This document shows positions 1 through 1,078 of a stretch of 1,078 nt of DNA, piece by piece. The stretch's first letter is position 1; every line of letters begins with the position of its first letter. Under the pieces are notes generated by a model, which was not told the origin of the DNA, did no database searches, and was given only the letters and a program-made list of their open reading frames with translations. This DNA is from a phage, in sequence record OR846416.1; one strand, 5' to 3'. The translations under genes and the position numbers were made by a program.

Positions 1-299
<299 letters not shown>

Positions 300-307
300 T
301 GTTATCT

Positions 308-312
308 GGAGA
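308..312 (+). promoter_or_regulatory. Shine-Dalgarno ribosome-binding site for the downstream CDS
   Basis: GGAGA at 308-312, with 8 nt (AAAATAAA) between GGAG and the ATG at 320-322. The spacer is A-rich, which is typical of an efficient initiation region. Confidence 0.7.
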
Positions 313-319
313 AAATAAA

Positions 320-1078
320 ATGTTGGATATTGATAAAAGCACTGTGGACTTTCTGGTCACCGAAAATATGGTTCAGGAAGTGGAAAAAGTTCTCAGCCAT
401 GACGTTCCGCTGGTGCACACCATCGTGGAAGAGATGGTGAAGCGCGACATCGATCGTATTTATTTCGTTGCCTGCGGATCGCCACTCAACGCGGCGCAAA
501 CGGCGAAACATCTGGCAGATCGCTTTTCCGATCTTCAGGTTTACGCCATTTCCGGCTGGGAGTTCTGCGATAACACCCCATATCGCCTCGACGCTCGTTG
601 CGCGGTGATTGGCGTTTCTGACTACGGTAAAACCGAAGAGGTAATCAAAGCGCTGGAGCTGGGCCGGGCCTGCGGCGCACTCACTGCGGCGTTCACCAAA
701 CGCGCGGATAGCCCGATTACCTCGGCGGCGGAATTTAGCATTGATTATCAGGCCGACTGTATCTGGGAAATTCATCTGCTGCTCTGCTACAGCGTGGTGC
801 TGGAGATGATCACCCGCCTCGCGCCGCACGCGGAAATCGGCAAGATCAAAAACGATCTCAAACAGCTGCCGAATGCGCTCGGTTATCTGGTACGCACTTG
901 GGAAGAAAAAGGCCGCCAGCTTGGTGAACTGGCCAGCCAGTGGCCGATGATTTACACGGTTGCTGCAGGCCCGCTGCGCCCGCTGGGTTACAAAGAAGGC
1001 ATCGTGACGCTGATGGAATTTACCTGGACGCACGGCTGTGTGATTGAGAGCGGTGAGTTCCGTCACGGCCCGCTGGAG
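320..1078 (+). CDS. frlB: Fructoselysine-6-phosphate deglycase, SIS-domain (GlmS isomerase-like) protein; 3' partial, N-terminal 253 codons present
   Basis: ATG at 320 is preceded by the SD and the frame is open to the window end (759 nt, 253 codons). Translation begins MLDIDKSTVDFLVTENMVQEVEKVLSHDVPLVHTIVEEMVKRDIDRIYFVACGSPLNAAQTAKHLADRF. SIS-domain motifs are visible: F-V-A-C-G-S-P (nt 473-484) resembling the GlmS A-C-G-T-S loop, S-D-Y-G-K-T (nt 617-634) resembling the S-x-S-G-x-T motif, and G-E-F-R-H-G-P-L at the window end resembling GlmS G-E-L-K-H-G-P-L. Codon usage is E. coli-like, with no TTA, CTA or TCA codons in the covered part. Confidence 0.85.
   Translation, partial: MLDIDKSTVDFLVTENMVQEVEKVLSHDVPLVHTIVEEMVKRDIDRIYFVACGSPLNAAQTAKHLADRFSDLQVYAISGWEFCDNTPYRLDARCAVIGVSDYGKTEEVIKALELGRACGALTAAFTKRADSPITSAAEFSIDYQADCIWEIHLLLCYSVVLEMITRLAPHAEIGKIKNDLKQLPNALGYLVRTWEEKGRQLGELASQWPMIYTVAAGPLRPLGYKEGIVTLMEFTWTHGCVIESGEFRHGPLE

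What the first reader, a model, noticed from the sequence alone, without database searches (positions are those of the whole stretch)
473..634. N-terminal SIS domain phosphosugar-binding motifs are intact
C-G-S-P (nt 473-484) and S-D-Y-G-K-T (nt 617-634) correspond to the two loops that bind the sugar-phosphate group in SIS domains. The second is the usual S-x-S-G-x-T motif with Asp in place of the second Ser and an inserted Tyr, a divergence from the GlmS consensus. Whether this divergence is a family trait of FrlB-like deglycases is not something I can establish from one sequence.
Basis: partly seen in the sequence, partly recalled or inferred. Interest (0 to 1): 0.2.

Follow-up and report, generated by a model that had tools for sequence, protein, structure and literature searches.

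The report
FrlB phosphate-binding loops, one Ser-to-Tyr variant
The two short motifs are the sugar-phosphate-binding loops of the well-known E. coli enzyme FrlB.

Summary
The window is the 3' end of frlA plus the first 253 codons of frlB (fructoselysine 6-phosphate deglycase) of E. coli O157:H7. C-G-S-P (residues 52-55) and S-D-Y-G-K-T (residues 100-105) sit exactly at the stated coordinates.

A profile of 113 FrlB orthologues aligns both motifs without gaps to GlmS C300-G-T-S303 and S347-Q-S-G-E-T352, the loops described as contacting the sugar phosphate. No Tyr is inserted. Asp101 sits at the free 'x' position, and Tyr102 replaces the second Ser (GlmS S349).

On the conservation question, G-S-P is invariant in the E. 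coli-type FrlB clade (113/113). S100, G103, T105 and E107 are nearly invariant. Position 102 is Tyr in 67 and Ser in 46, with about 19 switches on a rough tree. Tyr nearly always comes with Lys/Arg104. Outside this clade Tyr is essentially absent, and FraB has Lys and STM0572 has Gln at that position. The exact string SDYGKT is limited to enterobacterial relatives and a few others.

This is a known enzyme with known loops and a small clade-specific variation. Interest is low.

The parts
3..299 (+). 3' end of frlA (fructoselysine/psicoselysine transporter): the last 98 codons plus stop TAA at 297-299
   Evidence: NCBIfam NF008466 FrlA matches profile positions 349-446 of 446, E = 2.4e-61. RefSeq annotation of an identical O157:H7 stretch agrees.
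308..311 (+). GGAG Shine-Dalgarno-like sequence, 8 nt upstream of the frlB ATG
   Evidence: Read directly from the sequence. The function is inferred.
320..1078 (+). frlB, first 253 of 340 codons (fructoselysine 6-phosphate deglycase), cut by the window end
   Evidence: NCBIfam NF008481 equivalog scores 587.9 bits against a cutoff of 430. The stretch is 100% identical to annotated frlB in O157:H7 genomes.
473..484 (+). Loop 1, C52-G53-S54-P55, in the turn between strand 46-51 and helix 54-69. It aligns to GlmS C300-G301-T302-S303.
   Evidence: G-S-P is invariant in 113/113 orthologues and C52 is present in 110/113.
617..634 (+). Loop 2, S100-D101-Y102-G103-K104-T105, between strand 94-100 and helix 106-117. 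It aligns to GlmS S347-Q348-S349-G350-E351-T352.
   Evidence: Conservation in 113 orthologues is S100 112, G103 113, T105 108, and Y102 67 against S 46.
638..640 (+). E107, the counterpart of Salmonella FrlB E98, which is proposed to position the catalytic His
   Evidence: Invariant in 113/113 orthologues. The role comes from PMC10285752, where the E98A mutant was inactive.
1016..1018 (+). E233, the putative general base (GlmS E488, Salmonella FrlB E224)
   Evidence: PMC10285752.
1064..1066 (+). H249, the putative general acid, 16 residues after E233 (GlmS H504, Salmonella FrlB H240)
   Evidence: PMC10285752.

Best explanation
Nt 473-634 encode the two strand-to-helix loops of the N-terminal SIS subdomain of E. 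coli FrlB. By homology, these loops hold the 6-phosphate of 6-phosphofructose-lysine while E233 and H249 of the partner subunit carry out the isomerisation and Schiff-base hydrolysis that yields glucose-6-phosphate and lysine. The anchoring residues shown by alignment are S100, G103 and T105, together with the backbone amides at the N-terminus of helix 106-117 and the G53-S54 turn at the N-terminus of helix 54-69. The E. coli-type FrlB clade differs from the SIS consensus at two places. First, the fourth residue of loop 1 is an invariant Pro rather than Ser, and I infer that the preceding S54 takes over the hydroxyl and helix-cap role. Second, the third residue of loop 2 alternates between the canonical Ser and Tyr, a one-base change (TCC to TAC). 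Tyr is accepted almost only when the residue two positions on is Lys or Arg. I infer that the Tyr hydroxyl, the Lys104 ammonium group or both replace the lost Ser hydroxyl contact to the phosphate or to the amino-acid moiety of the substrate. Gene identity, residue correspondence, conservation and secondary-structure placement are shown here. The atomic contacts and the compensation idea are inferred.
For: Identity: NCBIfam FrlB equivalog 587.9 bits, and the frlABCDR context in an identical genome. Correspondence: ungapped profile alignment to GlmS, and a constant +9 offset to Salmonella FrlB S46, S91, S93, G94, T96, E98, E224 and H240 (ranges 34-253 against 25-244; residues named in PMC10285752). 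Role of these loops: the GlmS-Fru6P overlay and docking show H-bonds from these residues to the phosphate. In Salmonella FrlB, S91A loses binding, S93A and T96A are inactive, and S46A lowers kcat 25-fold. Structure: the AF2 model has pLDDT 93.5 and places both motifs in strand-to-helix turns. Foldseek top hits are the deglycases 3EUA, 2A3N, FraB, 3FKJ and 8GLR, followed by GFAT/GlmS isomerase domains. Conservation. Y/S switching and coupling: about 19 parsimony changes; Y goes with K/R in 66/67 sequences against 14/46 for S; 21/22 Y-clades against 6/20 S-clades have K/R, Fisher p = 1e-5. Both the S-type and the Y-type proteins lie in frl-like operons with a PfkB kinase, an AP_endonuc_2 protein and a GntR regulator. 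E. coli FrlB is reported as an active enzyme (Wiame et al. 2002, as cited in PMC10285752).
Against: There is no substrate-bound structure of any deglycase. The contacts in Salmonella FrlB come from docking and molecular dynamics. I had no model coordinates, so the distances from Y102 OH, K104 NZ and S54 OG to the phosphate site were not measured. The S93A mutant of Salmonella FrlB still binds substrate, so this position may orient the substrate or its lysine moiety rather than bind phosphate. The tree used for the coupling test is an unbootstrapped neighbour-joining tree, so the number of independent switches is approximate.
Confidence: 0.85

Rival explanations
1. One reading: the loops are an intact S-x-S-G-x-T site in which Asp replaces the second Ser and a Tyr has been inserted.
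For: None beyond reading the string by eye. S-D-(Y)-G-K-T can be forced onto S-x-S-G-x-T only by treating Tyr as an extra residue.
Against: The motif has six residues, like the GlmS SQSGET. The profile alignments to GlmS and the phmmer alignments to 3EUA, 3FKJ and FraB are ungapped through this loop. Forty-six of 113 orthologues read S-x-S-G-x-T in the same six columns.
Confidence: 0.02
2. Tyr102 and Lys104 do not bind phosphate. They form part of the pocket for the amino-acid (lysine) moiety, so the Y/S alternation reflects differences in substrate preference among FrlB orthologues, for example different glycated amino acids.
For: In the MD runs of Salmonella FrlB the substrate's Lys moiety contacts S93, and S93A binds substrate with near wild-type affinity yet is inactive. 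This position varies among deglycases with different substrates: Lys in FraB, Gln in STM0572, Ser in B. subtilis FrlB. Tyr is strongly coupled with Lys/Arg104.
Against: The Y-type and S-type proteins examined sit in the same kind of operon. Frequent flipping among close relatives fits near-neutral exchange better than repeated specificity shifts. No biochemical data exist.
Confidence: 0.25
3. The Y/S alternation is near-neutral drift at a tolerant surface loop position, and the association with Lys104 is a phylogenetic artefact.
For: The change needs one base. It has switched many times. The position is variable across the wider family, with S 73, T 13 and R, A, N, G, M, Q, K among the rest.
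Against: Within the clade only two residues, Y and S, are seen in 113 sequences, which indicates selection for a hydroxyl. Twenty-one of 22 separate Y-clades carry K/R, against 6 of 20 S-clades. S93A inactivates Salmonella FrlB.
Confidence: 0.2

Closest known systems
E. coli K-12 FrlB (fructoselysine 6-phosphate deglycase, NCBIfam NF008481)
   Same: It is the same gene. The window is 100% identical to O157:H7 frlB and 99% identical to the main E. coli protein cluster P0001. It has the same operon, frlABCD-frlR.
   Different: Nothing of substance. In the O157:H7 record examined, the downstream frlD is annotated as a pseudogene.
Salmonella FrlB (PDB 8GLR; 2A3N aligns over the same query range and served as its molecular-replacement model)
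   Same: The two-SIS fold is shared (Foldseek E = 1e-19 to 1e-20, TM 0.82-0.87). The Glu/His pair is 16 residues apart. The loop residues S91, G94, T96 and E98 equal S100, G103, T105 and E107.
   Different: Identity is only about 22%. Salmonella S46 is Pro55 here and S93 is Tyr102 here. In Salmonella, S46A lowers kcat 25-fold and S93A abolishes activity.
B. subtilis FrlB (PDB 3EUA) and Salmonella FraB (PDB 9OTJ and related entries)
   Same: These are the closest solved structures. The architecture and catalytic residues are the same.
   Different: Loop 1 is C-G-G-S in both. Loop 2 is S-H-S-G-N-T in 3EUA and S-H-K-G-N-T in FraB, so neither has Tyr.
GlmS / GFAT isomerase domain
   Same: The SIS fold and loop positions are shared: CGTS and SQSGET align to CGSP and SDYGKT, and E488/H504 align to E233/H249.
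   Different: FrlB has no glutaminase domain. It scores 42.8-44.5 bits against GlmS model cutoffs of 381-418. It catalyses deglycation rather than amination.

Membership tests
FrlB, fructoselysine 6-phosphate deglycase (NCBIfam NF008481 equivalog) | Whole-protein score above the curated cutoff | tested here: met
   587.9 bits against a cutoff of 430, even with only 253 of 340 residues.
FrlB, fructoselysine 6-phosphate deglycase (NCBIfam NF008481 equivalog) | Location in an frl operon with the transporter FrlA, epimerase FrlC, kinase FrlD and regulator FrlR | tested here: met
   The frlA end lies in the window. The identical O157:H7 locus reads frlA-frlB-frlC-frlD(pseudogene)-frlR.
FrlB, fructoselysine 6-phosphate deglycase (NCBIfam NF008481 equivalog) | Catalytic Glu and His exactly 16 residues apart | tested here: met
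   E233 and H249 are invariant in 113/113 orthologues and align to GlmS E488 and H504. The criterion comes from PMC10285752.
FrlB, fructoselysine 6-phosphate deglycase (NCBIfam NF008481 equivalog) | Deglycase activity on 6-phosphofructose-lysine | not testable with these tools
   Reported for E. coli FrlB by Wiame et al. 2002, as cited in PMC10285752.
SIS domain (Pfam PF01380) | Profile match above the gathering score | tested here: met
   36.6 bits against a cutoff of 25, over residues 43-161.
SIS domain (Pfam PF01380) | Double-SIS fold like the GlmS isomerase domain | tested here: met
   The AF2 model has pLDDT 93.5 and pTM 0.91. Foldseek finds deglycases and GFAT/GlmS isomerase domains at E = 1e-15 to 1e-21.
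SIS domain (Pfam PF01380) | Canonical phosphate loop S-x-[ST]-G-x-T | tested here: not met
   S100, G103 and T105 are present but the third residue is Tyr102. Distant representatives have S 73 plus T 13 of 102 at that position. Failing this feature does not argue against SIS membership.
SIS domain (Pfam PF01380) | First loop [CS]-G-x-S with a Ser at the helix N-terminus (GlmS S303) | tested here: not met
   The residue here is Pro55, while Ser occupies this position in 78/102 distant representatives. S54 precedes it and is invariant in the clade.
GlmS (glutamine--fructose-6-phosphate transaminase) | N-terminal glutaminase domain and a score above the GlmS model cutoff | tested here: not met
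   The ORF starts directly with the SIS region. It scores 42.8-44.5 bits against cutoffs of 381-418.

The most novel reading that the evidence does not exclude
Within frl-operon FrlB enzymes, the second serine of the SIS phosphate loop has repeatedly been swapped for a tyrosine, and the swap is tolerated only with a lysine two residues on. This would be a coupled, alternative way to build the substrate-anchoring loop. It might tune how the 6-phosphofructosamine, or its amino-acid moiety, is oriented for catalysis.
Probability: 0.2. Interest if true: 0.3.

Novelty: already known. Interest (0 to 1): 0.1.

Why it matters
It matters little. FrlB, its SIS fold and the role of these loops are already described, including mutagenesis of the equivalent residues in Salmonella FrlB. 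The useful outcome is a corrected annotation of the motif: a Tyr-for-Ser substitution with no insertion, and a Pro at the Ser303-equivalent position. There is also a small comparative note. Two positions whose alanine mutants cripple Salmonella FrlB are naturally non-serine in the active E. coli enzyme, and the Tyr co-occurs with Lys104. This could guide mutant design for groups studying deglycase mechanism or FraB inhibitors.

Tried and rejected
1. I tried to read Teplyakov et al. 1999 (PMC2144271) for the primary crystallographic list of GlmS phosphate ligands, but it is not held. A GlmS inhibitor review (PMC9272926) gave only docking statements. I therefore rely on PMC10285752 for the GlmS/FrlB overlay and on general knowledge for the GlmS contacts.

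2. They are not exposed, so no atomic geometry was obtained.

3. The residue-level alignment to 8GLR was not printed, because only the top five alignments are shown. I used the constant +9 offset of the matched ranges and the eight residues named in the paper instead.

4. The Pfam 'Melittin' hit on the FrlA C-terminus (19.7 bits, below the 20.6 cutoff) was rejected as a spurious match to a hydrophobic transmembrane segment.

5. I considered whether the S-type proteins might be paralogues with another function. This was rejected for the two loci examined, since both types lie in frl-like operons.

Full report
**What the window is.** The 1078-base window holds the last 98 codons of frlA (stop TAA at 297-299), a 20-nt spacer with GGAG at 308-311, and an ORF that starts at ATG 320 and runs off the end after 253 codons. 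The ORF scores 587.9 bits against the NCBIfam equivalog for fructoselysine 6-phosphate deglycase FrlB (cutoff 430). The upstream fragment matches the FrlA transporter model. Pfam finds a SIS domain at residues 43-161. The whole window is 100% identical to E. coli O157:H7 chromosomes, where it is annotated frlA/frlB within frlA-frlB-frlC-frlD-frlR.

**Check of the observation.** Nt 473-484 read tgc gga tcg cca, encoding C52-G53-S54-P55. Nt 617-634 read tct gac tac ggt aaa acc, encoding S100-D101-Y102-G103-K104-T105. The strings and coordinates are correct.

**Mapping to the SIS phosphate loops.**
- I took E. coli GlmS from MG1655 and aligned it to an HMM built from 113 full-length FrlB orthologues. 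The match has E = 5e-22.
- Through both motifs the alignment is ungapped. In the usual GlmS numbering (Cys1), C52-G53-S54-P55 aligns to C300-G301-T302-S303.
- Likewise S100-D101-Y102-G103-K104-T105 aligns to S347-Q348-S349-G350-E351-T352.
- E233 and H249 align to the catalytic E488 and H504.
- phmmer alignments to solved deglycases are also ungapped here. B. subtilis 3EUA has CGGS and SHSGNT, Salmonella STM0572 (3FKJ) has CGGS and SQQGNT, and Salmonella FraB (9OT* entries) has CGGS and SHKGNT.
- The match to Salmonella FrlB (8GLR) covers query 34-253 against chain 25-244. With this +9 offset, the residues named in the structure paper (S46, S91, S93, G94, T96, E98, E224, H240) fall on P55, S100, Y102, G103, T105, E107, E233 and H249.
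- An AF2 model of the near-identical full-length protein has pLDDT 93.5 and pTM 0.91. It places loop 1 between strand 46-51 and helix 54-69, and loop 2 between strand 94-100 and helix 106-117.
- Foldseek returns the deglycase structures first and GFAT/GlmS isomerase domains next.

S-D-Y-G-K-T has the same six residues as S-Q-S-G-E-T. Asp101 is at the variable second position, and Tyr102 substitutes for the second Ser. Nothing is inserted. 'Intact' is thus an overstatement, because two of the consensus hydroxyl residues are replaced.

**Is it a family trait?**
- In 113 orthologues of at least 51% identity, G53, S54 and P55 are invariant and C52 is present in 110. S100 is present in 112, G103 in 113, T105 in 108 (Ser in the other 5) and E107 in 113.
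- Position 101 is H 56, D 36, Q 19. Position 102 is Y 67 and S 46.
- The exact string SDYGKT occurs in E. coli, Serratia, Sodalis and a few others. SHYGKT is the commonest form.
- Among 102 more distant full-length representatives (under 50% mutual identity, 23-47% to FrlB), position 55 is Ser in 78 and Pro in only 5. Position 102 is Ser in 73, Thr in 13 and Tyr in 1.
- G-S-P is therefore a signature of the E. coli-type FrlB clade. Tyr102 is frequent there but not fixed, and it is essentially confined to that clade.

**Extra observations on the Tyr.**
- On a neighbour-joining tree built with the motif columns removed, the Y/S state needs about 19 changes. Ser to Tyr is a single-base change (TCC to TAC).
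- Tyr is accompanied by Lys or Arg at 104 in 66/67 sequences, against 14/46 for Ser.
- Counted by maximal same-state clades, the split is 21/22 against 6/20, Fisher p = 1e-5. The tree has no bootstrap support, so these counts are approximate.
- One S-type protein (Paenibacillus, P0011) and one Y-type protein (P0062) both sit next to a PfkB kinase, an AP_endonuc_2 (FrlC-like) protein and GntR/UTRA regulators. Both are therefore frl-operon enzymes.

**Mechanism.**
- By homology with GlmS and Salmonella FrlB, the two loops anchor the 6-phosphate of 6-phosphofructose-lysine at two helix N-termini. E233 acts as general base. H249 from the partner subunit acts as general acid and is positioned by E107. 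Together they carry out enolisation and Schiff-base hydrolysis to glucose-6-phosphate and lysine (PMC10285752).
- In Salmonella FrlB, S91A abolishes binding. S93A and T96A bind substrate but are inactive. S46A lowers kcat 25-fold with an unchanged Km.
- E. coli FrlB, which is reported as active (Wiame et al. 2002, as cited), naturally carries Pro and Tyr at the S46 and S93 positions.
- I infer that S54 and the Tyr102 hydroxyl and/or Lys104 take over those roles. I could not measure geometry because model coordinates are not exposed.
- An alternative is that position 102 contacts the lysine moiety. This was seen in some MD frames for S93.

**Verdict.** This is a known enzyme with known loops. 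The described divergence is misread, and the conservation question is answered. The Tyr102/Lys104 coupling and the invariant G-S-P are minor clade-level details, which I did not find mentioned in the few papers I read. Interest is low.

Noticed in passing
L001:6220-7005 (downstream of the window, same O157:H7 record): frlD, the fructoselysine 6-kinase that produces FrlB's substrate, is annotated as a pseudogene with an internal stop in O157:H7 strain TR01. The pathway may therefore be non-functional in this strain even though frlB is intact.
   Followed up: no
window 1-1078: Only 3299 of 5426 complete E. coli genomes contain this stretch, always once or twice and always on the chromosome. The frl locus is therefore accessory in the species.
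   Followed up: no
window 623-631 (Y102, G103 and K104 codons): Among FrlB orthologues, Tyr at 102 is almost always paired with Lys/Arg at 104 (66/67), whereas Ser at 102 tolerates K, N, E, T, S, A, Q or H. The Y/S state flipped about 19 times on a rough tree.
   Followed up: partly
L003:7038-9154 and L004:7151-9355: In the two Firmicutes loci examined, the FrlB and FrlC-like genes are followed by conserved Amidohydro_2 and YjbQ genes that are absent from the E. coli operon. L003 also carries duplicated GntR-PfkB pairs and a second, shorter SIS protein.
   Followed up: no
distant representatives P0173, P0220, P0222, P0214, P0234: A few distant SIS/deglycase-like clades have C-G-A-P in loop 1. 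This puts a Pro at the same position as FrlB P55, so the Ser-to-Pro change is also seen in sequences outside the E. coli-type FrlB clade.
   Followed up: no
window 3-296 (FrlA C-terminus, residues 73-93 of the fragment): There is a weak Pfam 'Melittin' hit (19.7 bits, below the 20.6 cutoff) on a hydrophobic transmembrane segment. I consider it spurious.
   Followed up: yes
proteins P0002-P0005 (E. coli, 302-310 aa): Several E. coli FrlB entries are 30-38 residues shorter than the 340-aa protein and are listed at 87-90% identity with full query coverage. This suggests internal deletions or assembly or annotation variants.
   Followed up: no
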